Of a DNA stretch of 64,000 nt, positions 28,858-58,093 are shown in pieces (the first letter of the stretch is position 1; the number at the start of each line of letters is the position of its first letter). Under the pieces are notes generated by a model that saw nothing but the letters and a program-made list of their open reading frames with translations, did no database searches and was not told the origin of the DNA. This DNA is from Deltaproteobacteria bacterium (lineage in GTDB: Bacteria; Myxococcota_A; UBA9160; UBA4427): positions 74,841 to 138,840 of the forward strand of contig JAJDAO010000072.1 of NCBI GenBank assembly GCA_029261835.1, written 5' to 3'. Made by a program: the position numbers and the translations under genes.

Positions 28858-28898
28858 ACGTGAGGCCTTCCGTAACTCGTGATGGGAGATTCGGAAGA

Positions 28899-38223: not shown

Positions 38224-39280
38224 TCCGCTGCGAAGTATCGTGCAGGCGCTGGCGGGGGGGGCGACGCTGGTGGCGGTCATCGCTGGGCTCTCTGGAGGCT
38301 GCGGCGAGCGCATTGCACCCGACGACCCGGTGCCCGAGGCGGCAGCACCGACCAGCTCCCGCGAGCTTGTCGAGGTCGTCGAGCAACAGACCGCACGTTT
38401 CGAGCAAGCCAGCGGCACCATCTTCTCGGCGCGGCATGCGACGGTTTCGTCGAAGATACTGGCGCGGATCGAGGAGATCCCGGTGCGGGCGGGTGATGAA
38501 ATCCGCAAAGGCGCGCTCGTGGTGCGGCTGGACAGCCGCGATCTTCAGGCCCGGCTGCAGGCGGCGCGCGAGGACGCTGCCGCCGCGCGGGCGTCACTCG
38601 AGCTGGCGCATTCCGAGCGGGAGCGCGTGACCGGTCTCTATCAGTCGAAGGTCGCGTCGCGCCAACAGCTCGATCGTGCGAGGGCCAGCCAGCAAGTCGC
38701 GATGGCCGCACTCGAACGGGCGGAGCAGAGCGTCGCAACTGCTGAGGTGGCGGTCTCGCACAGCGAGATCCGCTCACCGGTCGCCGGGCGCGTGATCGAC
38801 CGTCTGGCCGAGCCGGGCGACACGGCAGCGCCGGGCGTGCCGCTGCTGCGTGTCTACGACCCGGGCACCATGCGACTCGAAGCGCCCGTTCGAGAGGGAC
38901 TCGCGACGCGGCTGACACCGGGTCGCCGGCTGCGGGTTCACGTTGAAGCAATCGATCTCGGGCTCACTGGCGAGATCGAAGAGATCGTGCCAGCCGCTGA
39001 GCCCGGCGCGCGCACCTTCCTGGTCAAGGTGCGCCTGCCCGACGATCCGCGCTTGTTCGCCGGCATGTTCGGTCGCGTCGAGATTCCGGCCGGCACTGTG
39101 CGGCGGCTCTTGCTGCCCGCCGAGGCCGTCGAGCGTATCGGCCAGCTCGAATTCACCATGGTCGTGGCCGAGGACGGTCACGCACACAGACGCCTCGTCA
39201 CCACCGGACCCGCACCGCAGCCGGGCTCCGTCGAGATTCTGAGCGGCTTGACAGGTGGGGAACGGATCGCACTACCGTGA
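38216..39280 (+). CDS. RND efflux periplasmic adaptor (membrane fusion) lipoprotein
   Basis: ORF 38150..39280 trimmed to ATG 38216 (AGGAG 7 nt upstream; overlaps the RND stop as ATGAATAG). Lipobox LSGGC; coiled-coil hairpin; SPVAGRVI lipoyl-like motif. Confidence 0.85.
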   Translation: MNSPLRSIVQALAGGATLVAVIAGLSGGCGERIAPDDPVPEAAAPTSSRELVEVVEQQTARFEQASGTIFSARHATVSSKILARIEEIPVRAGDEIRKGALVVRLDSRDLQARLQAAREDAAAARASLELAHSERERVTGLYQSKVASRQQLDRARASQQVAMAALERAEQSVATAEVAVSHSEIRSPVAGRVIDRLAEPGDTAAPGVPLLRVYDPGTMRLEAPVREGLATRLTPGRRLRVHVEAIDLGLTGEIEEIVPAAEPGARTFLVKVRLPDDPRLFAGMFGRVEIPAGTVRRLLLPAEAVERIGQLEFTMVVAEDGHAHRRLVTTGPAPQPGSVEILSGLTGGERIALP

Positions 39281-42076
39281 GTTGACGCTCGCCCCGCGAT
39301 CGACGGGCGCGATGTCGACCCGCACCGCGCGGTCGATGGGAACCGGCTGCCAGTGCAGCGCGCGATAGCGGAGATGACCGTAGCCGCCCGCGAGGTGCAG
39401 CCACTTGACCATGCCCGGCTCGATATTCGAAAAATCCTGCCAGCCTTCGAATTGATACGGCTCGAAGCCGTTGTACATGATCATCTGCCCGGGCTGCACG
39501 GCCGGTGTCACCCGCGCCTGAACGACGAGGGAAGCGAGATCGTTGAAGACGCGCATGGGGGCCCCGTTCTCGATTCCCCGGGCGGCTGCATCATTGTCGT
39601 TGATGTGCGCGACGGGCTCACCGCGAATCGTACCCAGAATGATACGACTCGTGCTGTTCATGGAGTTGACGCTCCAACGGGGGTGCCCGCTGGTGATCTG
39701 GAAGGGATGATCGCCTCCCTGGGCCGGCGCCTCCTTGTGGACCGGCAACTCCTCACCCGCCTCCAGGAACCACTCGTGGTCGATGTAGAACTGGGCGCGG
39801 CGCGTGAGTGTCGGGAAGGGCTCCTTCTTCTCGGTCTGCCAGCGAAATGGTGAGTGTGTCTCGTTCGGTAGCAGATCCGAGGCCTGGGCCAACGCCATCG
39901 GTGAGCGGCCCCAACCGGTAAAGCGCACCCAACCCGTCTCGCGCAGCGTCTCGAGGCTGGTTCCCTCCGGCAGGTTTCCCAGCACGACCGAGTCGCGCAC
40001 CATCTCGTCGATCACCGCGTCGTCGTCCGCCAGTGCGCCATCGAAGGAGATCTCCTCGTACAGCCGATCGAGCCGGACCGATTCGCCGTTCGGCTTGACC
40101 ATCTCCGCCAGACCGCGCGCTTTGGCTCGCTCGGAGAGCTTCTTGGCGAGCAGCAGCGTGAACTGCCACTCGGTGCGCACGTCTTCGGGCGGGTCCACGG
40201 CGCGATCCGACAGCGTTAGGTTCATGACGTCGGGTGTCGTGTAGGGAAAGTTGGGCTTCTCGTAGTGCTGCGCCGCGGGCAGCACGATGTCCGAATACAG
40301 GCCGGTGGTGGACATGCGCCAGTCCATCGAGACGATCAGCTTCAGCTTGGGCCAGAGATGCTCGAGCAGCATGCGCTGTCCGCCCCGTTGGCGCCGGAGC
40401 AGGTTGCCACCGATCTCGAAGAGGACGCGGGGCGGCTTGTCGGGCGGCGGCTGGACGGTCCCCTGCCACCAGCCTTTCTCCTCGGCCTCCTGAATGTAAT
40501 CGTCGAAGGAGCGACGCATGGCCGGGTCGTTCCAGTCGGCTTTGTTCCACGCCTCGCGATAGCCGCAGTGGTGATACCAGAAGAAGGCGGAGGGCACTGC
40601 GCCCATCGGGAGCAGGCCCAGGTAGCTCAGCTCCGAAATCGCAATCTCCTCGGTAAGCGTGGGATCCTGTGCCAGGAAGCCGTCCATCATCGCCTGCTGT
40701 CCCTGGGCGATCTCCTCGGTGGCCTGCTGGCCCGGGCGCGGCTTGCCCGAGAGAATGAACGGACCGTCGAACATGCCCACGGCCCAGCTGCGGATTCCGG
40801 CTCCCTTCTTGCCCCAGTTGCCCGTGAGCGCGAGCAGCAGACACATGGCCCGCTCCATCAGATCGCCGTGATAGGCCTTGCCGGTCGTCCAGCCCAGAAG
40901 GATCCGCGTGCGACTGCGCGCTGTCTTGCGAGCCAGCTCGCGAATCGTGTCCGGATGAGCGCCGCACAGCGCCGAGGCCTGCTCCGGACCGTAGTCCTCG
41001 AGCAAGCGGCGCAGCAGCACGAACACCGGCTCTACGTCCACCGCCTCGCCGTCGCACAGCGTGGCGCTGTAGCTGCCCTCCAAGGCCGGCTCCAGCCCGG
41101 CGAGATCGAGCGTGCGCGGCGCCTCGGCAATCGCGCCGCTGCGCGTGTCGAAGAGGTGGAAGACGGTGTCGGAGCCGCCCTGCTGGAGATCACACTGACG
41201 CAGGAAGCGCCCGTTATCGCGGCGCACGAGCAGCGCGAGGTCCGTCTGCTCTCGCACGAAGTCCTCGTCCACCAGCCCCTCGTCGACGATCACGCGGCAC
41301 ATCGAGAGCGCAAGGGCGGCGTCCGAGCCGATTCGCACGGGCACGAAGTGATCACCGTGGATGGCCGAAGGGCTGTAGTCGGGCGCGATGGTCACGACCT
41401 GGCTGCCGTTGTAGCGAGCCTCGACGATGTAGTGGTACCAGGGAATCGCGCTGTAGGCGGGGTTGTTGGCCCAGATGAGCAACAGTTCGGAGTGGAACCA
41501 GTCGTCGCTGCTCGGCACCGGATCGAAGCGGCCGAAGGTCGCATAGAGACCGGGATTGAAGTCGTTGATCTCGGACTGCACATCGGTCGAGGTCGTGCCG
41601 AGGCGCTGAAAGACGTTGTTGGCCAGCACCATGCTCTGCGTGCCGCCCTCACCGGGCGTGCCGATCTTGACGATCGTCTCCGGACCCGACTCCTGGATGG
41701 CATCGAGCATGGCATCGGCGATCTCGCCGAGCGCCGCATCCCAGGAAATGGGCTCGAAGCGACCCTCTCCGCGCTCGCCGACGCGGCGCAGCGGATGGAG
41801 CACGCGCTCCTTGCCGTAGAGCATCGTGCTCCAGGAGGCGCCCTTCTGGCAGCCAGCCGGATTCATGTCCGGCACACCCTCCTCGACCGACTCGAAGTTG
41901 CCAGCCGCCTCTTCGCGCACGACGCGGCCGTCTCGCACATAGACGCGATGTGGACAGTTGCTCGGATAGCAGTCGACGCAGTGGCAGCCCCACGCCATGT
42001 CGTCCCACTTCCACTTGTCGCGATATGCATTCGCCCAGCGGCCGGCAATGCTTGGCCGCGCCACATGCTCTGCCAT
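39272..42076 (-). CDS. molybdopterin-dependent oxidoreductase catalytic subunit, NarG/EbdA-like, no signal peptide
   Basis: ORF trimmed to ATG 42076 (AAGGGGA SD). N-terminal Cys cluster WGCHCVDCYPSNC...GCQKG; TIAPDYSPSA; about 45 percent identical by eye to ORF 49569..52448. Confidence 0.85.
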   Translation of the reverse strand: MAEHVARPSIAGRWANAYRDKWKWDDMAWGCHCVDCYPSNCPHRVYVRDGRVVREEAAGNFESVEEGVPDMNPAGCQKGASWSTMLYGKERVLHPLRRVGERGEGRFEPISWDAALGEIADAMLDAIQESGPETIVKIGTPGEGGTQSMVLANNVFQRLGTTSTDVQSEINDFNPGLYATFGRFDPVPSSDDWFHSELLLIWANNPAYSAIPWYHYIVEARYNGSQVVTIAPDYSPSAIHGDHFVPVRIGSDAALALSMCRVIVDEGLVDEDFVREQTDLALLVRRDNGRFLRQCDLQQGGSDTVFHLFDTRSGAIAEAPRTLDLAGLEPALEGSYSATLCDGEAVDVEPVFVLLRRLLEDYGPEQASALCGAHPDTIRELARKTARSRTRILLGWTTGKAYHGDLMERAMCLLLALTGNWGKKGAGIRSWAVGMFDGPFILSGKPRPGQQATEEIAQGQQAMMDGFLAQDPTLTEEIAISELSYLGLLPMGAVPSAFFWYHHCGYREAWNKADWNDPAMRRSFDDYIQEAEEKGWWQGTVQPPPDKPPRVLFEIGGNLLRRQRGGQRMLLEHLWPKLKLIVSMDWRMSTTGLYSDIVLPAAQHYEKPNFPYTTPDVMNLTLSDRAVDPPEDVRTEWQFTLLLAKKLSERAKARGLAEMVKPNGESVRLDRLYEEISFDGALADDDAVIDEMVRDSVVLGNLPEGTSLETLRETGWVRFTGWGRSPMALAQASDLLPNETHSPFRWQTEKKEPFPTLTRRAQFYIDHEWFLEAGEELPVHKEAPAQGGDHPFQITSGHPRWSVNSMNSTSRIILGTIRGEPVAHINDNDAAARGIENGAPMRVFNDLASLVVQARVTPAVQPGQMIMYNGFEPYQFEGWQDFSNIEPGMVKWLHLAGGYGHLRYRALHWQPVPIDRAVRVDIAPVDRGASVNSR

Positions 42077-42261
42077 GCTCGATCCCCTTTCGAAACGCCA
42101 GCGTAGCAAGGCGCCCGCTCAGCACGCCGATGCAGCGCGGCTCGGCGCCCGCACGCTTTTCGCTTTACCCATCTTCGTAGAAGTGATAGGTAGTACATAT
42201 CACTTTTCCTTCCCGGATGCAGCGGGTACGAGGCAGTCCGGGCAACGGGCGGACGAGTCGG

Positions 42262-43926
42262 ATGAAGCGAGACTTCGACGTGATCGTGGTGGGGGCCGGG
42301 ATAAACGGCCTCGCCTGCGGGGCCTACTTGGCGCGGGCCGGGCTCGATGTCGCCGTGGCCGAGGCGAGAAACGAGTGCGGCCCGTTCGCGCTGACGGAGG
42401 ATCTCTTCGGCGCCGGCGTGCCCGTCGACACCCATGCGGGCGTCTGCTTCATCACGATGAGCCCGGTGCTGGGAGATCTGGAGCTCGATCGCTTCGGCCT
42501 GGACCTGATCTTTCCGCGCGTCCCGACCGGTACGGTCTCGAAGGACGGCAGCAACCTCATCTACTACCCCGACATCGAGAGAAGTTGTCAGGAGATCGCC
42601 CGCTTCTCGCCGCGCGACGCCCGCACCTATCGCGAGACGCGCCAGAGCATCTTGCAGCGCGCGGTCGAAATCCTGGAGCGCGGTGTCTTTCGGGCGCCTT
42701 CGGAGGAAGGACTCGAGTACCTGTGGAACCTGGGCAGCCTCGTCGGCTTCTCACCCGACGACTTTCGCACCATGAACGGCTTCGAGTATCTCGACCTGCT
42801 CTTCGAGCACGAGAAGGTCAAGTGCTCGCTGCTCGGGCAGGCGGCCATCGGCATCTTTGGCGACCCGTCCGAGAAGGGCGAAGGCGCCGTGATGGCGCTC
42901 ATGGGGCAAGCCTGCTCCTTTGCAGTGCCGCGCGGCGGCATGCACACGCTCGTTCACGCACTGGTGCGCTGCTTTCGGCACCACGGCGGAACGCTGCTCC
43001 TCAACGCCCCGGTCGAGCACGTGACGTTCGAGGCGGGACGCCCGACCGGCGTCGAGCTGGCCGAACGCACCGTGCTGCCCGAGCGTGCCTTGCGTGCTCG
43101 CCACGCGGTCGTCATGCACGTGAGCCCACCGGTCGCACTCCAGCTGCTCGGTGACGACCCGTTGCAGGAACACGACCGCGCCCTTTGGCGCAAGATGAAC
43201 GACTGGGACATGACCGGGCACTGCGCCTTCACGTCGTACGCCCTGCTGCGCGGCCCGGCTCGTTGGGCCTCACGCCACTGGAATCCCGACATCCAGGAGT
43301 GCGCCTTTCCGCTGCGGGCCTGGGATTCCTGGGAGCACGCCAAGCGCTCTTTTCAATACGCCAAGAACGACGAAGTCTTCGGTGTGGCGGGAGACGTCGG
43401 CGAGATCTACCAGCTCGGTGCTGTCGATCCTTCGCGCGTGCCGGCCAGCGGAGAGACCGTGCTCGTCTACGAGGTCGAGTACCCCGTGAACATGCGACGC
43501 CACGGAGGCCTGCCCGCTTGGGATCGCCGCGAGATCACCGACCGGCTGCATGATGAGCACCTGCAGGATCTTCGCGACATGATCGATGACTTCGACGTCG
43601 ACCTGATCGACTCCATGTACTTCACGCCCATCGACAACTGGCGGCGCAATCCCTCGGCCGTGCTGGGCCACGAGCTCGGCGGGGACGTGAGTGGGGCGCA
43701 GTGGTATGAGGGCCGCATGCCCAACCGCTCGGCGATCCCCGGGCTCTACTTCTCGCAGGGTGTCTGGCCCTGCTCGCTGACACACCTCGGCAGCGCCTAC
43801 ACGACGGCGTGCGCAATTGCTGCAGATCTCGAGGTGCGCGACCAGCCGTGGTGGAAGAGCGCACCGATGCAACGCTATCTCGAGCTGATGCTCGAACGGG
43901 AGCAGACTGCAGGGGGCAGCGCGTGA
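42262..43926 (+). CDS. NAD(P)/FAD-dependent oxidoreductase, COG1233 family, paralogue 5
   Basis: ORF trimmed to ATG 42262. DVIVVGAGINGLACGAYLARAGLDVAVAEAR. Confidence 0.85.
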   Translation: MKRDFDVIVVGAGINGLACGAYLARAGLDVAVAEARNECGPFALTEDLFGAGVPVDTHAGVCFITMSPVLGDLELDRFGLDLIFPRVPTGTVSKDGSNLIYYPDIERSCQEIARFSPRDARTYRETRQSILQRAVEILERGVFRAPSEEGLEYLWNLGSLVGFSPDDFRTMNGFEYLDLLFEHEKVKCSLLGQAAIGIFGDPSEKGEGAVMALMGQACSFAVPRGGMHTLVHALVRCFRHHGGTLLLNAPVEHVTFEAGRPTGVELAERTVLPERALRARHAVVMHVSPPVALQLLGDDPLQEHDRALWRKMNDWDMTGHCAFTSYALLRGPARWASRHWNPDIQECAFPLRAWDSWEHAKRSFQYAKNDEVFGVAGDVGEIYQLGAVDPSRVPASGETVLVYEVEYPVNMRRHGGLPAWDRREITDRLHDEHLQDLRDMIDDFDVDLIDSMYFTPIDNWRRNPSAVLGHELGGDVSGAQWYEGRMPNRSAIPGLYFSQGVWPCSLTHLGSAYTTACAIAADLEVRDQPWWKSAPMQRYLELMLEREQTAGGSA

Positions 43927-45557
43927 ACACGAGCTATGACGCGATCGTGCTCGGTGCCGGCCCCAACGGGCTCGCGGCCGCCGCATACTTGTCCGCGGCG
44001 GGGCAGCGCGTCGCTGTGATCGAGCAAGACGTCGAGACGGGTGGTGGGCTCGCCACGCAGGAGCTCAGCGGCTACCGCCTCAATCACCATGCCACCTATA
44101 TGCTGATGGCGGAGCTGCTACCGCCCTATCGCGATTTCGGGCTGCGCGAGCGCGGCGTCGACTTCATCCGGCCAAAGGTGCAGACGGCGTTTCTCTTCGA
44201 GCGACAGCAGTCTCTGCTTCTCTACTCGGATCCGGCGGGCAGCGAAGCCTCCGTCGAGGCGCTGTCGCCCGGTGACGGTGCCCGCTTTCGACGAATGTAC
44301 GATGAGTTCGAGCAGATGTGCGAGGCCTTTCTGCTGCCGGCCAGCTACGTCCCACCGCTGCCGCCGCTGGATCAGACGATCGCACTCGACCAGGCCGGTG
44401 AGCTCGGCCGGCGCATTTCGGAGATCTCGGAGATGTCGCCCCGCGAGGTAATCGCAAGCTACGAGTTCCGCGATCCACGTATCGAAGCCGCCTTTCTCTA
44501 CCTCGCGACGATGTTCGGGCTGGAGGCCTCCGAGGGCGGCATCGGCTTCCTCGTCCCGATCTACGTCTCGCGCATGATGAAGGCCGCCCTGGTGCGCGGC
44601 GGCTCTCACCAGCTCGCCTCTGCGTTGCGCCGCACGATCGAAGAACACGCTGGCGAGATTCTGACGTCGACAGCATTGCAGGAGATCCTCGTGCGCGAGG
44701 AGCGTGCCATCGGTGTTCGCGTCCTGTCTCGCGATGGAGCGGCGGAGCTGCATGCGAACACGGTGGTGAGCACGCTGAACCCCCAGCAGACCTTTCTCGA
44801 TCTGATGCCCCGCGATCGTGTCACGGCGCTACTGAGTGACACAGCGGCCGCGTGGGAGTGGGAGCCCACGAGCCTCTTTCTATTCAATCAGGGGATCGTC
44901 GGCGATCCGCCGATCTACGAGTGCTATCCCGACGATGCCAGCCGTGCTCTAATGGCCGTGATGGGCTATGAGACGCCAAACGACGTGATCGAGCACCAAG
45001 AGGCAGTCGCAGCCGGGGACCGCTCGCACCTGGCGGGGCACGGCTCGGTGCCGAGCCTCTTCGATCCCCTGATGGTGCCCGACCACGTGCCATTCGGGCC
45101 GCATCACGTGCTGCGCTGGGAGTGCTGCGCCCCCTACGAAGCGGACTGGAGCATCGAGGCCAGCCGGGAGTTCGCCGAGCAGCGCTACGATTTCTGGTGC
45201 CGCTACGCGCCCAACCTGAAGCAAGCGCAGTCGCGCGTGCGTATCACCTGGACGCCCCGCGACATCGAGACACACTTGCCCACGATGAGGCGCGGCTCGA
45301 TCAAGCACGGCGCCTACACCAGCCTGCAGATGGGCTACAACCGGCCGCTACCCGAGTGTTCGGGCTACAGGACGCCAATCGCCGGGCTGTACCTCGCCGG
45401 CTCGAGTGTCCATCCCGGCGGCATGGTCACGATGGGGGCCGGCTACAATGCGGCGCGCGTCGTGGCACGAGACATCGGCGCCGAGCTACTTCCCGAGCCC
45501 GAGATGGTGCGGCAAGCCCGCGAGCGAGGTTACCTGGAGAGCGAGGAGCAGGCGTAG
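43923..45557 (+). CDS. NAD(P)/FAD-dependent oxidoreductase, COG1233 family, paralogue 6
   Basis: GTG 43923 overlaps the upstream stop (GTGA). DAIVLGAGPNGLAAAAYLSAAGQRVAVIEQD; C-terminal YRTPIAGLYLAGSSVHPGG. Confidence 0.85.
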   Translation: MNTSYDAIVLGAGPNGLAAAAYLSAAGQRVAVIEQDVETGGGLATQELSGYRLNHHATYMLMAELLPPYRDFGLRERGVDFIRPKVQTAFLFERQQSLLLYSDPAGSEASVEALSPGDGARFRRMYDEFEQMCEAFLLPASYVPPLPPLDQTIALDQAGELGRRISEISEMSPREVIASYEFRDPRIEAAFLYLATMFGLEASEGGIGFLVPIYVSRMMKAALVRGGSHQLASALRRTIEEHAGEILTSTALQEILVREERAIGVRVLSRDGAAELHANTVVSTLNPQQTFLDLMPRDRVTALLSDTAAAWEWEPTSLFLFNQGIVGDPPIYECYPDDASRALMAVMGYETPNDVIEHQEAVAAGDRSHLAGHGSVPSLFDPLMVPDHVPFGPHHVLRWECCAPYEADWSIEASREFAEQRYDFWCRYAPNLKQAQSRVRITWTPRDIETHLPTMRRGSIKHGAYTSLQMGYNRPLPECSGYRTPIAGLYLAGSSVHPGGMVTMGAGYNAARVVARDIGAELLPEPEMVRQARERGYLESEEQA

Positions 45558-48742: not shown

Positions 48743-49534
48743 TCACTCCTCGAGCAGGTCTGCCAAGAGGCGATCTCGCACAGCCAGCACCAGGGCCTCT
48801 GTGCGTTCGAGCGCCGCGCGCGTGTAGCGCTCCTCTGTAGCGGGATCGAACCGCCCGACCACGCGAGAGTTGAATAGCTGCAGCTCCGCCCGCACGAGCA
48901 CGTCCAGCCGCTTCACATAGATCGCGAGGTCGCTGACCTCGAGCCCCACCTCTTCGGTCAGTCCACTCTCGCGCGCCCCGCCAACCGCGCGGGTGATCTT
49001 CAGGCTGAGCGGGTCGTAGCGTTCCCGCCCGGCGCTCTCGAGCCGTCGCACCAGTCGCAGCTCTTCCAGCGCGCTGAGTACGTCGCTGTCGATGCCGGGC
49101 ACCGCGAGCAGCTCGCAGCGCTTGACCGGCGTGCGGCGGTCCCCGGCCAACGCTTCGACCAGATCTGCGCGCAATACCCGCGTACGCTGTAGCTCGCGCG
49201 CAACGCGGTCTGCGCCTTGCTGCTGGATCATCCGGGCGATCACACGCAGCGGCAGATGGCGCTGCGAGCAAAGCTCACGCACCAGCGCGATCCGCTCGAT
49301 GCAGACGGGATCGTAGTAGGCCATGTTGGGCCCGGTGAACAGGGCGGGCGGCAGCAGACCGAGATCGTTGTAATGCTTGACCGTCGCGCGGGTCACATCG
49401 GCCGCGCGCGCCAGCCGAGCGCGGCTGAGCCAACCCGCTGGAACCTGCGAGCGCTCGACATATGTGCGCCGGGCCCTGCCCGGCGTGCCTGCCGTCTTTT
49501 TGCCTGCGATGCCGCAGACGTAGCACAGCGGCAT
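48743..49534 (-). CDS. MerR-family transcriptional regulator
   Basis: HTH region LSRARLARAADVTRATVKHYNDLGLLPP. Lies 34 nt downstream of the Tat molybdoenzyme gene on the same strand. Confidence 0.75.
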   Translation of the reverse strand: MPLCYVCGIAGKKTAGTPGRARRTYVERSQVPAGWLSRARLARAADVTRATVKHYNDLGLLPPALFTGPNMAYYDPVCIERIALVRELCSQRHLPLRVIARMIQQQGADRVARELQRTRVLRADLVEALAGDRRTPVKRCELLAVPGIDSDVLSALEELRLVRRLESAGRERYDPLSLKITRAVGGARESGLTEEVGLEVSDLAIYVKRLDVLVRAELQLFNSRVVGRFDPATEERYTRAALERTEALVLAVRDRLLADLLEE

Positions 49535-49568: not shown

Positions 49569-52448
49569 TCAGATCGAGGTGTCGCTGGCGGAGGTGTGCT
49601 TGCTGACCTCGACCCGCGTGCCGCGATCGCTGGCTCCCGGCGTTCCTACCGCGAGTCTCGGCTGCAGGTGAAAATAGTCGCCCGCGAGTTGAATCGGGTT
49701 GAAGGGGTTCGGAGTGATGGCCTTCTGCGACGTGTGACCCGCAAACTGGTACGGCTCCCAGGCGTGGTAGATGATCACCTGCCCCGGTCGCACCGAGGGT
49801 GAAACCCTGGCCTGCACTTCGAAGGAGCCGGCGTCGTTGTGGACGCGCACGATCTCGCCGTCCTCGATTCCGCGCGCACCGGCGTCTTCCGGCCCGATGG
49901 TCAGCAGCGGCCCACCGCGCTGCAGACGCAGGAGCGAGACGTCGTCACGCCACGCCGCATGAACCGACCAGCGTGTGTGGCCGCTCGTCATCTGCAGCGG
50001 ATGGTTCCCGCCGATGGGCGGCGGGTCCTTGTGAACGGGCAGCTCCTCCCCGAGCTCGAAGTAGAGATCGTGGTCGATATAGAACTGCATGCGACGCGTC
50101 AGTGTGGGCCAGGGGCGCTTCTTCTCGGTATGCCAGCTATTCGCCGTGATCGTCTGGTCGGGCTCGATATCGCTGGCATTCCCAAGATTCATGTAGCCGG
50201 AGCCCAGCCCGGTGTAGCGCTCGAAGCCCTTCTGCTTGAGCTCGTCCCACCCGATCCCGTCGAGATTGTTCGCCAGCGAGAGGGCCTCCTGCATCATCGC
50301 TTCGGAGTCGTTCTCCCCGAAGCGCTGCTGAAAAGTGAACTCTTCGTAGAAGTCGTCGATACGACGGCGCTCACCAGCACGGTCTTCGAACTCACTGACA
50401 CCGCGCGCTCGGGCCCGCTCCTGCAACGCCTTCGCGAAGCCACAGTGAAACGCCCAGTCGGATCTGGACTCGCCGAGGGGAGGGACGGCCTGGGTGGTGA
50501 CGTGCGCGAAGGGTGCGATCGGTGTCGTCCACGGGATCGTATTGACTTCGTAATAGGCGGCGATCGGCAACACGAAATCGCTGTGAAGCGCGGTAAAGTT
50601 CATGCGCCAATCGAGCGTGACGATCAGCTCCAGCTTGGGCCAGAGCTCTGCGAGGATCTTCGGATAGCCCCGGTTGCGGCGCAGATAGTTGCCACCGGCC
50701 TCGAAGAAGAGGCGTGGCCGGTTGCGCGCGGGCACCTGCCAGCCCTTCTCGAAAGCCTCCTCCAGGTATTCGTGCGACTCGCGCTGCTGGCTGGGATCCC
50801 ACTTCTTCGAACCGCCCAGATCGTCCGCGAGCCCCGCGTGCTCGTAGAGGAAGATTGCGCTCGAGGGTTGACCACCGCCGGCGTGCCTCCGGCGCATCAG
50901 TTCGTACATCACCATCTCCGGCGTGTACCCATCCCACTTCATCTCGAGCACATCCAGCGCGACGGGGAGTCCCTCGGCGACCAGACCCAACCGCGGCGGT
51001 AGCGAGCCCGATCCGACGATCAGGCCTTCATGGCCCGAGAGCCACAGGTTTGGAAAACCGTTGATCCCGCTGCCCTTCCGTCCGAACTGTCCCGCCAACG
51101 CAAAGGCGAGGAACTGCGCGCGCTCCATCTCGAGCCCGTGATAGTACTTGCCGAAATTGGACTGTGTGATGCACGTGGCAGCGCGCGCCCGCGCCATCGC
51201 TCGAGCCAGCTCGCGCACCGTCTGCGGCCGAACGCCGGTGACCTCTGCCGTCGCCTGCGGTGAGTAGGCCGCGAGTCGCTCGCGGAGCAGCTCGAAGACC
51301 GGCACCACCCGCACCTCTCCTCGCGGCGTGGCGACGCGATACTCCCCCTCCAACGCGGGGTCCAGCCCCTCGAGCGCGAGGCTCGTCTGCGAAACGGCCT
51401 GAATGCTGCCAGAAGTCCTGTCGTATACCCAGAAACGATCTTCCTCGCCGCCCTGCTCGAGGTCGCTGGAACGCAGGAAGCGGCGTGTATCGCGGCATAC
51501 GAGCAGAGGCAGGTCCGTCTGCTCCGCCACGAATTTCGCGTCGTAGATATTCTCTTCGACCATCACGTGAGCCAGGGACAATCCGAATGCGGCATCGCTG
51601 GCGATGTTCAACGGGATCCACTGGTCGGCGTGAATCGCCGAGGGGTTGTAGTCGGGCGTGATTGCGACCACCCGAGCACCGCGATAGCGGGCCTCGTTGA
51701 TGAAGTGCGCGTTCGGAATCTGTGTGTAGGTCGGGTTCCCGCCCCAGACCAGAATCAGGTCGGAGTAGAAGAGGTCGTCGGCCGAGCTGCAGAAGGAGAT
51801 CTTGCCGCACGTGACGGCGGCGCCCGGGTGGTGATCTCCGAACTCCGAGTCGAGGTCCAGCACGTGAGTATCGAGCAGCGCGTGGGTACGCTGAACACCG
51901 AGGTTGGAGCCTCCCGAGCCCTCGTCCCAGATGATCGACCCGGGGCCATCGCTCGCCAGAACGTCGATGCACCGGTCGGCGATCGTGCGCAGCGCATACT
52001 CCCACGAGACTCGCTTCCAGCTTCCGGCTCCACGCGGGCCGACGCGTTCGAGCGGGTAGCGCAGGCGACCGGCGTCATACATCCGTCCGCTGAAGGAGGC
52101 GCCCTTCTGACATCCGCGCGGATTGAAGTCCGGCACGTCGGCGTTCGTCTGTGGATAGCTGCCGGTCTGCTCCTCGCGCCAGACAACGCCTTCCTTCACA
52201 TAGACGTTCCAGTTGCAGCAGCGCTGGTACCAGCAGTTCCCGTGGTGGGTCCCCTTCGCGACGCGATCCCAGGTCCACTGGCGCCGGTAGACATCCCTGA
52301 AATCGTGATAGTGAATCTCGCGCACGATCGGCGCGACGGATCCAGATGAATCCTGTCGCGCTTCGCCGCAGCGGAGCTGGAGGAGTGAGAGGGCGAGCAG
52401 ACCGCCACCGCCCTGCAGAAAGCGCCGCCGCGTGATGGGGGCTCGCAC
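49569..52448 (-). CDS. Tat-exported molybdopterin-dependent oxidoreductase catalytic subunit, NarG/EbdA-like
   Basis: 959 aa. GTG start after GGAG. Twin-arginine signal MRAPITRRRFLQGGGGLLALSLL; HHGNCWYQRCC...GCQKG cluster motif; ITPDYNPSA. Confidence 0.9.
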   Translation of the reverse strand: MRAPITRRRFLQGGGGLLALSLLQLRCGEARQDSSGSVAPIVREIHYHDFRDVYRRQWTWDRVAKGTHHGNCWYQRCCNWNVYVKEGVVWREEQTGSYPQTNADVPDFNPRGCQKGASFSGRMYDAGRLRYPLERVGPRGAGSWKRVSWEYALRTIADRCIDVLASDGPGSIIWDEGSGGSNLGVQRTHALLDTHVLDLDSEFGDHHPGAAVTCGKISFCSSADDLFYSDLILVWGGNPTYTQIPNAHFINEARYRGARVVAITPDYNPSAIHADQWIPLNIASDAAFGLSLAHVMVEENIYDAKFVAEQTDLPLLVCRDTRRFLRSSDLEQGGEEDRFWVYDRTSGSIQAVSQTSLALEGLDPALEGEYRVATPRGEVRVVPVFELLRERLAAYSPQATAEVTGVRPQTVRELARAMARARAATCITQSNFGKYYHGLEMERAQFLAFALAGQFGRKGSGINGFPNLWLSGHEGLIVGSGSLPPRLGLVAEGLPVALDVLEMKWDGYTPEMVMYELMRRRHAGGGQPSSAIFLYEHAGLADDLGGSKKWDPSQQRESHEYLEEAFEKGWQVPARNRPRLFFEAGGNYLRRNRGYPKILAELWPKLELIVTLDWRMNFTALHSDFVLPIAAYYEVNTIPWTTPIAPFAHVTTQAVPPLGESRSDWAFHCGFAKALQERARARGVSEFEDRAGERRRIDDFYEEFTFQQRFGENDSEAMMQEALSLANNLDGIGWDELKQKGFERYTGLGSGYMNLGNASDIEPDQTITANSWHTEKKRPWPTLTRRMQFYIDHDLYFELGEELPVHKDPPPIGGNHPLQMTSGHTRWSVHAAWRDDVSLLRLQRGGPLLTIGPEDAGARGIEDGEIVRVHNDAGSFEVQARVSPSVRPGQVIIYHAWEPYQFAGHTSQKAITPNPFNPIQLAGDYFHLQPRLAVGTPGASDRGTRVEVSKHTSASDTSI

Positions 52449-52470: not shown

Positions 52471-52662
52471 TCAGGACGGCCTGGACAGAATGACGGCGCC
52501 GTTCTGGAAGTCGACCTCTCGAATCACGCCCTCGATCTCTTTCGTCTCTCCGAAGAGCGTCGCGATGCGAATCCGCTTGCCATCGCACTCGATCATCGCG
52601 ATGTCTTCGAGTACCAGCTCACGCTCGCCATTCTCGTCGAAGTACGCACTCGCCATGCACAT
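52471..52662 (-). CDS. cooT: CooT-family nickel-binding protein
   Basis: ORF 52471..52707 trimmed to ATG 52662 (GGGAGGA 7 nt upstream). The 63-aa product starts MCMASAYF... like R. rubrum CooT (MCMAK..., Cys2 is the Ni ligand), with a conserved TLFGE-type segment. Confidence 0.75.
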   Translation of the reverse strand: MCMASAYFDENGERELVLEDIAMIECDGKRIRIATLFGETKEIEGVIREVDFQNGAVILSRPS

Positions 52663-52663
52663 G

Positions 52664-52879
52664 TCACGGTCCTCCCAACTCGTCGAGGGCGCCCTGCAGA
52701 ACGTCATTCGCCCGACGCATCTGCTCCGCGGCCTCGAGAATGCGTTGTGAAACGCCGGCGTGTCCCGAAGCCTCGGCCTTCTCTGCCCATTTTCGGAACT
52801 CCTGCATATGCCCTTTGTTGTGCTCCATCCAGTGTTCGAGCACGATGGTCAACTTGCCCTCTTTGCTCTCCGTGGTCAT
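52664..52879 (-). CDS. CooJ-like small helical nickel-binding protein (no His tail)
   Basis: ORF 52664..52963 trimmed to ATG 52879 (GGGAG upstream). 71 aa. EHWMEHNKGHM matches the CooJ H-(W/F)-X2-H-X3-H Ni(II) site motif exactly. Stop lies 1 nt before the cooT ATG. Confidence 0.6.
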   Translation of the reverse strand: MTTESKEGKLTIVLEHWMEHNKGHMQEFRKWAEKAEASGHAGVSQRILEAAEQMRRANDVLQGALDELGGP

Positions 52880-52916
52880 CTTCCCAGCTCCCATATGCAG
52901 ACTTATGCGCTCAGTG

Positions 52917-53732
52917 CTAACTCGGATCGCGCGAGAGAATCCATCGATCGACGATCTCGCCAACGGCCACGATACCAGGTGAGTCCGGTGGCAGCTCAGT
53001 GAGGGGCTTCCCGATCAGATCGTGGTAGGCAACTCGCTCGTCCTGCGGAATGAATCCGACGACCTCCACCCCCACCGACTGCGCCGCCCGCTCGACCAGC
53101 TCTTCGTTTCCCTGAACGCGGTTCAGGACCAGACCGAGACGACCACACTCGATGACGTTCTCCTCTTCGACCATTCGCTTCACCAACGAAGCGGTCTGCA
53201 GACCGCGCGAGGTCGCATCACTGACGATGATCAGAGTGTCGACCCGTCGCATCACCTGGCGATTGATCTGCTCGAGCCCCGCCTCCCCGTCGATCAAGAT
53301 CGTGTCGAAGTCTTGCGAAAGCGCCTCGATGGTTCCGCGCAACAGGTCGTTGACCGGGCAGTAGCAACCCTTCGTCTCGGTTCTCCCCATCGCGAGCAGG
53401 GCGTAGTCCTCCTGCTCGCTCAGCGCCTCGAGAACCATGTAGTCGAGCATGTCGATCAGTTGAGTCTTTTGCTCTCGATTGGCTCGTCTCGACCTGGCGA
53501 TGATCTCCTCGCGAACTTCTCCCATCGTCCGCTTCACCTCGACATCGAGCGCCAGCGGCAACCCCTTGGCCGGGTCCGCGTCGATCAGCAGCAGCCGTCC
53601 CGTGCGGTCCCGGTCCAGCAGTACCTTGCTCATCATCGCGGTGAAGGCAGTCTTTCCGACGCCACCCTTGCCACAGACGGCGATCAACCTCGTCTGCTGC
53701 CCACTCGTGCCCACACTGGCCGCCTCCACCAC
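52917..53732 (-). CDS. cooC: CooC/AcsF-type nickel-insertion ATPase (MinD/ParA class)
   Basis: 271 aa. Deviant Walker A CGKGGVGKT; metal-bridging C-x-C motif TKGCYCPVN; GGAGGGG SD before GTG 53732. Confidence 0.8.
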   Translation of the reverse strand: MVEAASVGTSGQQTRLIAVCGKGGVGKTAFTAMMSKVLLDRDRTGRLLLIDADPAKGLPLALDVEVKRTMGEVREEIIARSRRANREQKTQLIDMLDYMVLEALSEQEDYALLAMGRTETKGCYCPVNDLLRGTIEALSQDFDTILIDGEAGLEQINRQVMRRVDTLIIVSDATSRGLQTASLVKRMVEEENVIECGRLGLVLNRVQGNEELVERAAQSVGVEVVGFIPQDERVAYHDLIGKPLTELPPDSPGIVAVGEIVDRWILSRDPS

Positions 53733-53734
53733 GC

Positions 53735-56743: not shown

Positions 56744-56746
56744 GGC

Positions 56747-57892: not shown

Positions 57893-58093
57893 CGACGCTC
57901 CTCCGTCTGTGGGTTGCGGTGAGCTGGTCGCCCGGCTCACGACGTCTGCTGAGCCTCCATCCTCTCACGATACGCGGACCCGGTTCGGCGAACATCGTCC
58001 ATATTGACTATCCGGGGCCTTGCGCCGCAAGCTGCGAGCGGCGGACGTAGCGCCCCGCCTTGCGAGTGCCGGCCCAGTGATACAATCCCCGGC

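What the first reader, a model, noticed from the sequence alone, without database searches (positions are those of the whole stretch)
39272..42076. Two NarG/EbdA-like molybdoenzyme catalytic subunits, one cytoplasmic and one Tat-exported, with no beta, gamma or chaperone genes
ORFs 39272-42076 and 49569-52448 are clear paralogues of about 945-960 aa. Both have an N-terminal Cys/His cluster motif and PDY(S/N)PSA segments, like type II DMSO-reductase-family alpha subunits. Only the second has a twin-arginine signal.

Characterised type II enzymes (nitrate reductase, ethylbenzene dehydrogenase, selenate/chlorate reductases) are encoded with a four-cluster beta subunit, a heme gamma subunit and a NarJ/TorD-like chaperone. 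None of these is adjacent to either copy. Their neighbours are COG1233 flavoproteins for the cytoplasmic copy and the Ni/dehydratase genes for the exported one. Their electron-transfer partners, and probably their substrates, are therefore unconventional.
Basis: partly seen in the sequence, partly recalled or inferred. Interest (0 to 1): 0.55.

Follow-up and report, generated by a model that had tools for sequence, protein, structure and literature searches.

The report
Two orphan EbdA-like molybdoenzyme subunits
Two genes encode catalytic subunits of molybdenum enzymes related to ethylbenzene dehydrogenase, one cytoplasmic and one exported; their usual iron-sulfur partner genes are absent here but sit beside close relatives elsewhere, and the exported copy is nearly always next to an unusual iron-sulfur and nickel gene set.

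Summary
Both ORFs lie on the minus strand (39272-42076, 934 aa; 49569-52448, 959 aa) and are 44% identical. Both are type II DMSO-reductase-family alpha subunits, with ethylbenzene dehydrogenase EbdA as the closest solved structure. Both keep the FS0 His/Cys3 motif, the Asp molybdenum ligand and Lys450. Only copy 2 has a twin-arginine signal. No beta, gamma or chaperone homologue occurs anywhere in the 64 kb.

Each copy represents a large uncultured-lineage clade (Binatia, Chloroflexota). One clade is uniformly Tat-less (0/114), the other Tat-bearing (107/113). In both clades many members sit beside canonical EbdB-type beta (with or without gamma and delta) genes, and about 40% are orphans. 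The closest relative of copy 1 in the tree, at 81% identity, has beta directly upstream. Shared partners encoded elsewhere, as in Sterolibacterium S25DH isoenzymes, are therefore the likeliest reading, at least for copy 1.

Two points are new. The cytoplasmic EbdA-like clade appears undescribed. The copy 2 orthogroup is linked to a BzdNO/HadBC-like HGD-D pair in 8 of 9 loci, in three gene orders, usually with an activase, a truncated ACS-like protein, CooC, DUF8180 and CooT, and never with beta. Copy 1 diverges from a flavoprotein pair that resembles CtmAB/delta24-desaturase.

The parts
39272..42076 (-). Copy 1: Tat-less (cytoplasmic) EbdA-like Mo-bisPGD catalytic alpha subunit, 934 aa
   Evidence: It has an RBS and ATG start, and no upstream open frame. 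It is 42% identical to EbdA. None of 114 full-length homologues has a Tat motif.
41849..41983 (-). Copy 1 FS0 [4Fe-4S] ligand region: His32-x3-Cys36-x4-Cys41 ... Cys76
   Evidence: Aligned to the EbdA HxxxCx5C...C motif. The motif HCVDCYPSNC is conserved across the clade.
41561..41563 (-). Copy 1 Asp172, the predicted Mo ligand (aligned with EbdA Asp223)
   Evidence: Residue-by-residue alignment to 2ivf_A, numbering.
49569..52448 (-). Copy 2: Tat-signal-bearing EbdA-like Mo-bisPGD catalytic alpha subunit, 959 aa
   Evidence: 107 of 113 full-length homologues have an S/T-R-R-x-F-L motif.
52359..52448 (-). Copy 2 twin-arginine signal peptide region (TRRRFLQGGGGLLALSLLQLRC...)
   Evidence: The motif and the following LSLLQLRC string are conserved in the orthogroup.
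52110..52247 (-). Copy 2 FS0 ligand region: His68-x3-Cys72-x5-Cys78 ... Cys113
   Evidence: Alignment to EbdA. HHGNCWYQRCC is typical of the orthogroup.
51834..51836 (-). Copy 2 Asp205, the predicted Mo ligand (aligned with EbdA Asp223)
   Evidence: alignment, numbering.
42217..43926 (+). Flavoprotein F5 (CrtI/CrtO-like, COG1233-type), divergent from copy 1 across a 140-bp intergenic region
   Evidence: Pfam and NCBIfam. GVPVDTHA lies at the position of the covalent-FMN His motif.
43923..45557 (+). Flavoprotein F6, the partner of F5. Its likely GTG start overlaps the F5 stop. The pair resembles CtmAB/delta24-steroid desaturase
   Evidence: Its GYRLNHHA compares with the published consensus G-F-L/R-x-N/S-T/L-H-A (PMC11061730).
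55445..57940 (-). Two HGD-D family genes (56747-57940 and 55445-56743): a BzdNO/HadBC/double-cubane-like Fe-S enzyme pair, the conserved neighbour of the copy 2 orthogroup
   Evidence: Pfam, NCBIfam, PDB 8s02_B at 160 bits. Orthologues lie beside the alpha in L005, L006, L167, L168, L169, L171 and L172.
54617..55405 (-). BcrAD/BadFG-type ATPase (activase)
   Evidence: Orthologues at 74-76% identity in L005, L006 and L167.
53735..54586 (-). Truncated acetyl-CoA-synthase-like protein: it matches only the middle (A2) domain of CdhC/AcsB and ends in a Cys-x6-Cys-x2-Cys-x5-Cys tail
52917..53732 (-). CooC-like P-loop (MinD/ParA-class) ATPase, a presumed Ni-insertion factor
   Evidence: Orthologues at 74-79% identity.
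52664..52894 (-). DUF8180 homologue, a small His-rich protein (…EHWMEHNKGH…)
   Evidence: by comparison with the PF26551-annotated genes of L005 and L006.
52471..52662 (-). CooT homologue (MCMASAYF…, 63 aa). Its stop is 22 bp before the copy 2 start
   Evidence: The orthologous genes in L005 and L006 are annotated PF10133.
48743..49534 (-). MerR-family regulator, 34 bp downstream of copy 2 on the same strand
   Evidence: It is not conserved in the other loci.
58004..59224 (+). LuxR/GerE-family regulator, divergent from the HGD-D…alpha string and conserved with it
   Evidence: Orthologues in L005, L006, L167 and L169.

Best explanation
Both genes encode the catalytic alpha subunit of EbdA/S25DH-type type II DMSO-reductase-family enzymes. 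This subunit holds the Mo-bisPGD cofactor, ligated by Asp, and one [4Fe-4S] cluster (FS0). Characterised enzymes of this type remove a hydride from a C-H bond and add a hydroxyl group derived from water, passing two electrons through FS0 to a partner.

Copy 1 belongs to a large, uniformly Tat-less and therefore cytoplasmic clade. Copy 2 belongs to a sister clade that is exported by the Tat pathway.

Both are 'orphan' paralogues in a lineage (Binatia-like) that carries many alpha genes and fewer beta genes. The most likely arrangement is that they assemble with an EbdB-type four-cluster beta subunit encoded elsewhere in the genome. For the exported enzyme this would also include a heme-b gamma subunit and a delta chaperone. 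This matches the S25DH isoenzymes of Sterolibacterium denitrificans.

Substrates are inferred only from context. Copy 1 is divergently paired with a flavoprotein pair resembling CtmAB/delta24-desaturase. The window is rich in acyl-CoA, SDR, OYE, sulfatase and RND genes. This suggests oxygen-independent oxidation of isoprenoid, terpenoid or steroid side chains. Copy 2 acts in the same pathway as the adjacent BzdNO/HadBC-like, ATP-activated Fe-S enzyme.

Shown: family, cofactor-ligand motifs, localisation signals, absence of partner genes in the window, presence of partner genes beside relatives, and conserved synteny. Inferred: partners supplied in trans, reaction type and substrate class.
For: Family and ligands:
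- TIGR03479 scores 882/889 bits and the EbdA model 831/653 bits.
- 2ivf_A scores 785/644 bits. Asp223 and Lys450 of EbdA align with Asp and Lys in both copies, and the FS0 His/Cys3 motif is kept.

Localisation: a Tat motif occurs in 0/114 copy 1 homologues and 107/113 copy 2 homologues.

Partners exist in both clades:
- The neighbour clusters were identified as TIGR03478 beta (470-510 bits), TIGR03477 gamma and TIGR03482 delta.
- 33 of 57 copy 1-clade alphas have beta within 4 kb.
- L009, the sister of copy 1 in the NJ tree at 81% identity, has beta at position -1.
- L013 has the orphan orthologue 4 kb from a paralogous alpha-beta pair.
- L010 (orphan orthologue) and L030 (beta-alpha) come from one MAG. 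Across 14 assemblies, 43 alphas compare with 16 betas in the fetched loci.
- Copy 2-clade members L100, L106, L103 and L044 have beta, with or without gamma and delta.
- Beta is abundant and highly conserved in the same lineages: more than 120 clusters at 77-85% identity, several named Candidatus Binatia.

Precedent: S. denitrificans has fewer beta-gamma genes than its eight alpha genes, and S25DH1 is alpha1-beta3-gamma3 (PMC6016249).

Flavoprotein link:
- All six window flavoproteins carry the His of the covalent-FMN motif, in three adjacent pairs.
- Delta24-SD followed by Mo-dependent S26DH2 is a known two-step route (PMC11061730).
- Such pairs recur near alphas in L010, L166 and L168.
Against: - The source genome outside the window could not be searched. 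No beta on the same 277,184-bp contig appeared among the top 120 beta homologues.
- Most orthologues of copy 1 at 76% identity or more are orphans too (L001, L003, L010-L014).
- For the copy 2 orthogroup, none of 9 loci has beta, gamma or delta within 10 kb, while 8 of 9 have the HGD-D pair.
- The delta chaperone, reported as essential for S25DH production, is also absent from the window.
- EbdA His192 is not conserved: it is Pro in copy 1, and the loop is deleted in copy 2. The chemistry may therefore differ from EbdA.
- On the trimmed alignment, copy 2 is as similar to PcrA as to EbdA (37% each).
- The flavoprotein link is seen in only about 5 of roughly 170 loci.
Confidence: 0.55

Rival explanations
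1. The copy 2 orthogroup does not use a beta-gamma module. Its redox partner, or a subunit of the same complex, is the BzdNO/HadBC-like HGD-D iron-sulfur pair, matured or assisted by the Ni factors. The pair might even be co-exported with the alpha by Tat hitch-hiking, as beta normally is.
For: - Orthologous HGD-D pairs (62-86% identity) are directly linked to the alpha in 8 of 9 loci.
- Three different gene orders occur: HGD-HGD-…-alpha, HGD-HGD-alpha and alpha-HGD-HGD. Flanking genes are not conserved.
- Beta, gamma and delta were never found within 10 kb of these alphas (and the Pfam tables of those calls).
- Alphas at 60% identity or less to copy 2 lack the HGD-D pair.
- FS0 is retained, so some Fe-S partner is needed.
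Against: - Known HGD-D enzymes are cytoplasmic and need an ATP-driven activase, whereas the alpha has a well-conserved Tat signal.
- No such Mo/HGD complex is known.
- Linkage is equally explained by a shared pathway. In known alkylbenzene degradation, a periplasmic EbdA-type hydroxylation comes first and a benzoyl-CoA-reductase-type step later.
- The activase and Ni genes are missing in L168 and L169.
- No interaction could be tested with the tools available.
Confidence: 0.17
2. One reading: both alphas are stand-alone enzymes that hand electrons from FS0 directly to unconventional, unlinked or neighbouring carriers. Copy 1 would use the adjacent flavoproteins and copy 2 a periplasmic carrier.
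For: - No partner genes occur in 64 kb.
- About 40% of clade members are orphans.
- Monomeric FS0-containing relatives exist in other DMSOR subfamilies, such as FdhH and assimilatory nitrate reductases (my own knowledge, not tested here).
Against: - One orthogroup (76-82% identity) contains both orphan and beta-coupled genes (L009), so loss of the beta requirement is unlikely for copy 1.
- 12 of 14 assemblies with several fetched loci have a beta at another alpha locus.
- The flavoprotein neighbours are not conserved in most orthologues.
Confidence: 0.12
3. Copy 2 is not a C-H hydroxylase. It would be a periplasmic oxyanion or sulfur-compound enzyme of the SerA/ClrA/PcrA/DdhA kind, acting for example as a terminal reductase or a dimethylsulfide dehydrogenase.
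For: - Copy 2 is 37% identical to both EbdA and PcrA on the trimmed alignment, and PcrA scores 503 bits.
- Its clade branches outside the group formed by EbdA and the copy 1 clade.
- The EbdA His192 loop is deleted.
Against: - The EbdA structure and model still score highest (644 bits; 653 bits).
- The tree was rooted on PcrA, is NJ without support values, and contains no SerA, ClrA or DdhA sequences, so it cannot decide.
- The gene context is catabolic (HGD-D pair, CoA enzymes, OYE), not respiratory. No heme or membrane-anchor genes are present.
Confidence: 0.12
4. One or both copies are decaying, non-functional paralogues left behind after operon break-up.
For: They lack adjacent partner genes, and the lineage has many paralogues.
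Against: - Both are full-length, uninterrupted ORFs with strong third-position GC bias (0.85 and 0.81).
- All cofactor-ligand motifs are intact.
- Orthologues at 70-90% identity occur in many MAGs and metagenomes.
- Copy 1 has a good RBS.
- Copy 2 is embedded in a conserved operon.
Confidence: 0.03

Closest known systems
Ethylbenzene dehydrogenase alpha subunit EbdA (Aromatoleum aromaticum, PDB 2ivf chain A)
   Same: - It is the best solved-structure match for both copies (785 and 644 bits), aligned end to end.
- The domain set is the same.
- The FS0 motif is the same type, H-x3-C-x4/5-C…C.
- The Asp223 Mo ligand and Lys450 are conserved.
   Different: - Identity is only 42% (copy 1) and 37% (copy 2), far below the NCBIfam equivalog cutoff (831/653 bits against 2000).
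- His192 is not conserved.
- Copy 1 has no Tat signal.
- There is no ebdBCD-like operon here.
Steroid C25/C26 dehydrogenases (S25DH1-4, S26DH1/2) of Sterolibacterium denitrificans
   Same: - They belong to the same subfamily of water-dependent hydroxylases.
- There are many alpha paralogues per genome and fewer beta-gamma genes, with alphas sharing beta-gamma encoded elsewhere (PMC6016249).
- S26DH2 acts after a flavin desaturase related to CtmAB (PMC11061730). This resembles copy 1 with its divergent flavoprotein pair.
- JGI labels some homologues 'steroid C-25 hydroxylase alpha/beta subunit'.
   Different: - All S25DH and S26DH enzymes are periplasmic alpha-beta-gamma complexes, according to PMC6016249 and PMC10100899.
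- No S25DH sequence was available for direct comparison.
- The host here is a Binatia-like uncultured bacterium, not a denitrifying betaproteobacterium.
Perchlorate reductase PcrA (PDB 4ydd) and the SerA/ClrA/DdhA group
   Same: They are type II, Asp-ligated, Tat-exported alphas. PcrA is the second-best structural relative (453/503 bits).
   Different: The scores are lower than for EbdA, those enzymes sit in alpha-beta-gamma-delta operons, and the genomic context here is catabolic.
Respiratory nitrate reductase NarGH
   Same: It is the one well-known cytoplasmic type II enzyme, so it is a functional analogy for the Tat-less copy 1 clade, which is often encoded as an alpha-beta pair.
   Different: - It is much more distant (168/232 bits) and is 1,250 aa long.
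- It is membrane-anchored by NarI.
- It keeps a vestigial Tat motif for NarJ. Copy 1 has no such remnant, and no NarI or NarJ genes are present.
Limonene dehydrogenase CtmAB / delta24-steroid desaturase (neighbours of copy 1)
   Same: - The window proteins are two adjacent subunits of about 570 aa from the phytoene-desaturase-like superfamily.
- A His sits at the position of the published covalent-FMN motif.
- In Sterolibacterium the desaturase acts upstream of a Mo hydroxylase.
   Different: - No CtmAB or delta24-SD sequence was available, so homology beyond the motif and the superfamily is untested.
- Only one of the six window proteins matches the consensus exactly.
Class I benzoyl-CoA reductase BzdNO / 2-hydroxyacyl-CoA dehydratase HadBC / double-cubane cluster protein (neighbours of copy 2)
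   Same: Both are HGD-D family proteins. The best PDB matches are BzdN at 160 bits for the first and the double-cubane cluster protein (7yyl/6eno) at 46 bits for the second (BzdO 40 bits). A single BcrAD/BadFG-type ATPase gene is adjacent.
   Different: - All NCBIfam scores are below their cutoffs.
- The pair is linked to a Mo-bisPGD alpha, a truncated ACS-like protein, CooC, CooT and DUF8180. I could not find this combination described.

Membership tests
Type II DMSO reductase family, alpha subunit (TIGR03479) | Molybdopterin oxidoreductase domain plus molybdopterin-dinucleotide-binding domain | tested here: met
   PF00384 (113 bits each) and PF01568 (52/69 bits) in both copies.
Type II DMSO reductase family, alpha subunit (TIGR03479) | Score at or above the curated family cutoff | tested here: not met
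   882 and 889 bits against a cutoff of 984.75, aligned over the full model length. Both are near-threshold outliers of the family.
Type II DMSO reductase family, alpha subunit (TIGR03479) | N-terminal FS0 [4Fe-4S] motif with His as first ligand (H-x3-C-x3-5-C … C) | tested here: met
   Copy 1 has H32/C36/C41/C76 and copy 2 has H68/C72/C78/C113, aligned to EbdA.
Type II DMSO reductase family, alpha subunit (TIGR03479) | Aspartate as the protein ligand of Mo | tested here: met
   Asp172 (copy 1) and Asp205 (copy 2) align with EbdA Asp223. That type II enzymes use Asp is stated in PMC10100899.
Type II DMSO reductase family, alpha subunit (TIGR03479) | Encoded with a four-cluster beta, a heme-b gamma and a TorD/NarJ-like delta chaperone | tested here: not met
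   None is present in the 64-kb window. The feature is met at many related loci of both clades.
Periplasmic EbdA/S25dA/SerA-type enzymes | Twin-arginine signal on the alpha subunit | tested here: inconclusive
   Met for copy 2 (TRRRFLQ plus an h-region; 107/113 homologues). Not met for copy 1 (no motif, no upstream frame; 0/114 homologues). No dedicated signal-peptide predictor was available.
Ethylbenzene dehydrogenase EbdA (NF042978 equivalog) | Equivalog-level score and EbdA active-site residues | tested here: not met
   831 and 653 bits against a cutoff of 2000. His192 is replaced by Pro in copy 1 and its loop is deleted in copy 2, while Asp223 and Lys450 are kept. The roles of these residues are recalled from the EBDH literature.
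Steroid C25/C26 dehydrogenase alpha subunits | Sequence clustering with S25dA/S26DH alphas | not testable with these tools
   No S. denitrificans sequence could be fetched. The only hints are JGI name labels on homologues.
CtmAB / delta24-steroid desaturase flavoproteins (neighbours F5/F6 and F1-F4) | Heteromeric pair of roughly 60-kDa subunits, each with the motif G-F-L/R-x-N/S-T/L-H-A holding the FMN-binding His | tested here: inconclusive
   - There are three adjacent pairs.
- The His is present in all six proteins.
- F4 is an exact match (GFRGNTHA), F6 is close (GYRLNHHA), and the others are degenerate.
- The superfamily is confirmed (CrtO/CrtI models below cutoff).
- No reference sequence was available for comparison.
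HGD-D enzymes (BzdNO / HadBC / double-cubane protein), neighbours of copy 2 | HGD-D domain pair plus a BcrAD/BadFG ATPase, scoring at the level of a named family | tested here: inconclusive
   PF06050 is met in both proteins (308/174 bits) and the activase scores 195 bits on PF01869. All NCBIfam equivalogs are below cutoff; the best is double_cubane at 204 against 350.

The most novel reading that the evidence does not exclude
The copy 2 orthogroup defines a new kind of enzyme system. In it, a Tat-signal-bearing EbdA-like Mo-bisPGD subunit works with a BzdNO/HadBC-like Fe-S pair instead of the universal beta-gamma module. This would be either one complex or an obligatorily coupled pair of steps. 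The system would include an ATP-driven activase, a truncated acetyl-CoA-synthase-like protein and a dedicated Ni-delivery set (CooC, CooT, DUF8180, sometimes a His-rich permease). It would carry out an undescribed oxygen-independent transformation of a hydrophobic or methylated substrate. Separately, the Tat-less clade would be the first cytoplasmic branch of the EbdA-type hydroxylases.
Probability: 0.2. Interest if true: 0.8.

Novelty: new variant of a known kind. Interest (0 to 1): 0.5.

Why it matters
EbdA/S25DH-type enzymes hydroxylate unactivated C-H bonds with water instead of oxygen. They are of interest for anaerobic hydrocarbon and sterol turnover and for biocatalysis, for example 25-hydroxyvitamin D3 synthesis. 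All characterised members are periplasmic alpha-beta-gamma complexes from a few denitrifying Proteobacteria.

This window points to two large uncharacterised radiations in Binatia and Chloroflexota, lineages common in soils, sediments and groundwater. One radiation is cytoplasmic and mostly has beta only. This raises the question of what accepts its electrons.

The fixed linkage of one exported orthogroup to an ATP-activated Fe-S enzyme pair and Ni-maturation genes is unexplained. It offers a concrete, testable candidate for new anaerobic-type chemistry.

The plain fact that the alpha genes are unlinked from their partners is not itself remarkable. It is common in these clades and has a published precedent.

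Tried and rejected
1. Exact look-ups of copy 1 and copy 2 to fetch more of the source contig found nothing on record. The cluster look-up showed only that both lie on one unnamed NCBI contig of 277,184 bp.
2. I searched for a beta on that same contig by looking for the contig length among beta homologues. None appeared in the top 120 of 6,214 hits, so this is inconclusive.
3. My first ferredoxin filter required two or more CxxCxxCxxxC motifs and missed the real beta genes, which have one canonical motif. All-vs-all clustering and NCBIfam then found them.
4. Greedy ORF calling picked long antisense ORFs across the HGD/Ni operon. I replaced it with tblastn of window proteins.
5. The first tree attempt timed out. 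I redid it with a thinned set and simple NJ. That tree has no support values and only EbdA and PcrA as references.
6. The 166-aa ORF at 38774-39271, downstream of copy 1, was considered as a possible chaperone. I rejected it because it is antisense to the Pfam-supported HlyD gene and has no delta similarity.
7. There is no Moco riboswitch or any other Rfam hit. No sigma-70-like promoter and no minus-strand terminator lies within the copy 2 operon.
8. Literature searches on Binatota with EbdA, on a Tat-less EbdA-like clade, and on HGD/CooC/CooT/ACS-like clusters found no description of these systems. The isoprene-reductase paper describes a different system.
9. The MerR gene after copy 2 is not conserved in the related loci, so I did not count it as part of the module.

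Full report
**Observation**

The two ORFs are real and lie on the minus strand: 39272-42109 (first in-frame start TTG; biological start ATG at 42076) and 49569-52448.
- Copy 1 starts MAEHVARPS…. An AAAGGGGA ribosome-binding site lies 6-7 nt upstream. The frame is closed a few codons further up, and the divergent flavoprotein gene starts 140 bp away, so there is no room for a hidden signal peptide.
- Copy 2 starts VRAPITRRRFLQGGGGLLALSLLQLRC…, a textbook twin-arginine motif followed by a hydrophobic stretch.
- The proteins are 44% identical over 917 residues.
- Third-position GC is 0.85 and 0.81, as expected for real genes in this 64% GC sequence.

**Family**

Both proteins carry PF00384 and PF01568.
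- The best NCBIfam model is TIGR03479, the type II DMSO-reductase alpha subunit. The scores are 882 and 889 bits over the full model, just under the 985-bit cutoff.
- Next is the EbdA equivalog, at 831 and 653 bits against a cutoff of 2000. NarG, DmsA and the others fall far below.
- Among solved structures, EbdA (2ivf_A) is best at 785 and 644 bits. PcrA follows at 453 and 503, NarG at 168 and 232, and NxrA at 122 and 139.

The residue-level alignments show the following:
- The FS0 motif is H32-x3-C36-x4-C41…C76 in copy 1 and H68-x3-C72-x5-C78…C113 in copy 2.
- EbdA Asp223, the Mo ligand, aligns with Asp172 and Asp205.
- Lys450 is conserved in both.
- His192 of EbdA is Pro in copy 1 and falls in a five-residue deletion in copy 2.

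They are therefore Asp-ligated type II alphas of the EbdA kind, but not EbdA orthologues.

**Absence of partners in the window**

Pfam scans of all large ORFs found no four-cluster ferredoxin, no EB_dh heme subunit and no TorD/NarJ chaperone. No CxxCxxCxxxCP motif occurs in any of the six frames; a relaxed pattern matches once, in a short 89-aa ORF. A tblastn search with 38 beta, 11 gamma and 13 delta sequences taken from related loci found nothing better than E = 0.014.

**Two clades**

Homologue searches returned thousands of relatives. They come mainly from MAGs labelled Candidatus Binatia, 'Deltaproteobacteria' or 'Myxococc-', and from Dehalococcoidia, Chloroflexota and Anaerolineaceae.
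- None of the 114 full-length proteins most similar to copy 1 has a Tat motif, and they share the FS0 string HCVDCYPSNC.
- 107 of the 113 most similar to copy 2 have S/T-R-R-x-F-L, with HxxNCWYQRxC.
- A neighbour-joining tree rooted on PcrA places copy 1 inside a Tat-less radiation. That radiation is sister to a Tat-bearing subclade, and both group with EbdA. The copy 2 clade branches outside that group. The tree has no support values and only EbdA and PcrA as references.
- Identities on the trimmed alignment are 42% for copy 1 to EbdA, 37% for copy 2 to EbdA and 37% for copy 2 to PcrA.
- A recent survey lists EbdA, S25dA, CmdA, SerA, ClrA and PcrA as periplasmic and Asp-ligated. By design it kept only sequences with canonical operons (PMC10100899). 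I found no description of a cytoplasmic EbdA-like clade.

**Do relatives have partners?**

I fetched 80 genome loci with copy 1 and 79 metagenome loci with copy 2. I called ORFs and clustered all neighbours. The three commonest neighbour families are confirmed by NCBIfam:
- type II beta (TIGR03478, 470-510 bits; EbdB model 406-452 bits);
- heme-b gamma (TIGR03477, 156-158 bits);
- delta chaperone (TIGR03482, 102-149 bits).

Among copy 1-clade alphas with at least 4 kb of flank on both sides (n = 57), 33 have beta within 4 kb on the same strand, 14 have gamma, 13 have delta and 23 have none. More specifically:
- Copy 1's closest relative in the tree, L009 at 81% identity, has beta directly upstream. 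L019, L015 and L017 (66-72% identity) do too. Most other orthologues at 76% identity or more are orphans.
- In L013 the orphan orthologue lies 4 kb from a paralogous alpha-beta pair.
- L010 (orphan, 80% identity) and L030 (beta-alpha) belong to one MAG. Over 14 assemblies with several fetched loci there are 43 alphas and 16 betas, and 12 of the 14 assemblies have at least one beta.
- In the copy 2 clade, L100 is a canonical gamma-beta-alpha-delta operon, L106 is gamma-beta-alpha-alpha, L103-L105 are alpha-beta, and L044 is beta-alpha-alpha.
- Beta proteins of this type are abundant and strongly conserved in the same lineages, with more than 120 clusters at 77-85% identity.
- This mirrors Sterolibacterium denitrificans. 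That genome has eight alpha genes and fewer beta-gamma genes, and S25DH1 is alpha1-beta3-gamma3 (PMC6016249).

The orphan state is therefore ordinary for these families, and partners supplied in trans are the economical reading. I could not test this in the source genome. Both copies lie on an unnamed NCBI contig of 277,184 bp. Exact look-ups failed, and no beta from that contig surfaced.

**Context of copy 1**

Copy 1 converges on an RND pump (AcrB and HlyD) and diverges from two flavoprotein genes of about 570 aa, 42217-43926 and 43923-45557. Four more such genes lie at 5405-12275.
- They match CrtO/CrtI-family models below cutoff.
- They occur as three adjacent pairs.
- All six have a His at the position of the covalent-FMN motif G-F-L/R-x-N/S-T/L-H-A. 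This motif was reported for both subunits of limonene dehydrogenase CtmAB and of the delta24-steroid desaturase. F4 has GFRGNTHA and F6 has GYRLNHHA (PMC11061730).
- In Sterolibacterium that desaturase creates the allylic position which the Mo-dependent S26DH2 then hydroxylates.
- Such pairs recur near alphas. L010 has F1/F2 orthologues at 79-84% identity, 4 kb from the copy 1 orthologue. In L166 a pair lies directly upstream of alpha-gamma-beta-delta. In L168 a pair is divergent from a copy 2 orthologue.
- The link is suggestive but seen in few loci. Most copy 1 orthologues have unrelated neighbours.

**Context of copy 2**

The apparent 470-bp gap upstream of copy 2 in fact holds two small genes:
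- a DUF8180 homologue at 52664-52894;
- a CooT homologue at 52471-52662, whose stop is 22 bp before the copy 2 start.

The minus-strand string, with gaps of 2-39 bp, is HGD-D, HGD-D, BcrAD/BadFG activase, CdhC-like protein, CooC-like protein, DUF8180, CooT, alpha, MerR. A divergent LuxR gene lies upstream.

Nine independent loci carry alphas 69-79% identical to copy 2:

| Arrangement | Loci |
|---|---|
| Full string | window, L005, L006, L167, L171, L172 |
| HGD-D, HGD-D, alpha | L169 |
| TetR, alpha, HGD-D, HGD-D | L168 |
| No HGD-D seen; contig ends 466 bp after the alpha | L170 |

- L006 and L172 add a membrane protein between CooT and the alpha. In L006 it is His-rich and resembles a Ni/Co permease.
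- The HGD-D genes are orthologous across these loci, at 62-86% identity.
- None of the nine loci has beta, gamma or delta within 10 kb.
- None of the roughly 75 loci with alphas at 60% identity or less to copy 2 has the HGD/Ni genes.
- Genes outside the LuxR-to-alpha block differ between loci, so the linkage looks selected rather than merely inherited.
- The first HGD-D protein is closest to BzdN (8s02_B, 160 bits). It also matches HadC, MbdN and the double-cubane cluster protein. The second HGD-D protein matches the double-cubane cluster protein best (46 bits), then BzdO (40 bits).
- The CdhC-like protein matches only the middle domain of acetyl-CoA synthase (residues 318-482 of the 730-aa enzyme). 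It ends in a C-x6-C-x2-C-x5-C tail and lacks the A-cluster domain.

**Reading the copy 2 linkage**

The conservative reading is a shared pathway. In known alkylbenzene degradation, a periplasmic EbdA-type hydroxylation comes first and a benzoyl-CoA-reductase-type step later (established knowledge of those pathways). The alpha would still use a beta-gamma module encoded elsewhere.

The bolder reading is that the HGD-D pair replaces beta-gamma as the redox partner. This fits the complete lack of beta in nine loci and the three gene orders. It conflicts with the conserved Tat signal and with the cytoplasmic, ATP-dependent nature of known HGD-D systems. I rate it about 0.17. What the Ni factors mature remains unexplained.

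**Verdict**

- The finding is real, and the family assignment is right.
- The Mo ligand is Asp.
- The split between a cytoplasmic and an exported copy is clade-wide.
- Missing adjacent partners alone do not imply unconventional partners, because relatives in both clades have conventional ones and orphan alphas are common.
- Two things remain interesting: an apparently undescribed cytoplasmic radiation of EbdA-type enzymes, and a conserved module that ties one exported orthogroup to an ATP-activated Fe-S enzyme pair and nickel-handling genes.

Noticed in passing
window 52471-57940 (- strand); L005, L006, L167, L171, L172: A conserved string combines an HGD-D pair, a BcrAD/BadFG activase, a truncated ACS-like protein (A2 domain only, with a Cys-rich tail), CooC, DUF8180 and CooT. 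No recognisable Ni enzyme (no CODH, no full ACS) is present, so what the Ni chaperones mature is unexplained.
   Followed up: partly
L006 9237-9998; L172 5578-6291: In two related loci a membrane protein is inserted between CooT and the alpha. In L006 it carries a His-rich loop (HSHWHLHAGAGLHHHEHAHHSDHLHLHE) and looks like a Ni/Co permease. In L172 it has a weak DsbD_2 hit.
   Followed up: no
window 5405-12275 and 42217-45557: Six CrtI/CrtO-like flavoprotein genes occur as three adjacent pairs. Each protein has a His at the position of the covalent-FMN motif of CtmAB/delta24-steroid desaturase. This is an unusually high dosage for 64 kb.
   Followed up: partly
window 52359-52448 and homologues P0121-P0134: The Tat signal of the copy 2 orthogroup ends in a highly conserved LSLLQLRC string. 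The invariant Cys right after the hydrophobic region suggests a possible lipid anchor, although Arg at position -1 is not a canonical lipobox.
   Followed up: no
window 60218-60883; L005 332-1678; L170 1618-3518: Corrinoid-methyltransferase components recur on the LuxR side of the module. The window has a B12-binding protein, L005 has an MtmB-family protein, and L170 has a B12-binding protein plus a URO-D/MtaA-like protein.
   Followed up: no
window 59331-62032: Enoyl-CoA hydratase, a B12-binding protein and an Old-Yellow-Enzyme-type flavin reductase follow the LuxR gene. OYE, sulfotransferase, 3beta-HSD-like and SDR genes also flank related loci (L167, L168). This hints at steroid or terpenoid metabolism.
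   Followed up: no
L009 1176-9923: Beside the beta-alpha pair of the relative closest to copy 1 in the tree (81% identical) lie a putative glycyl-radical enzyme (795 aa), a radical-SAM activase, a CoA ligase, an acyl-CoA dehydrogenase and an SDR. These identifications rest on N-terminal sequence only.
   Followed up: no
L103-L105, about 13700-17350 in L103: A Tat-alpha and beta pair of the copy 2 clade sits next to genes that look like ETF-ubiquinone oxidoreductase and ETF beta and alpha. This could be a route for electrons. The identification rests on N-terminal sequence only.
   Followed up: no
window 45564-48578 (-): A large 7TM-PAS-PAS-GGDEF-EAL signalling protein lies between the two molybdoenzyme loci.
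   Followed up: no
window 28854-30416 (+) and 62027-63538 (-): There are two sulfatase genes. An acyl-CoA dehydrogenase, a GMC oxidoreductase and an AMP-dependent ligase at 19767-24952 add to the catabolic character of the region.
   Followed up: no
L013 and L009 beta genes: The beta subunits of a 'Chloroflexota' MAG (L013) and a 'Deltaproteobacteria' MAG (L009) from the same study have identical first 34 residues. This suggests recent transfer or a binning error between these lineages.
   Followed up: no
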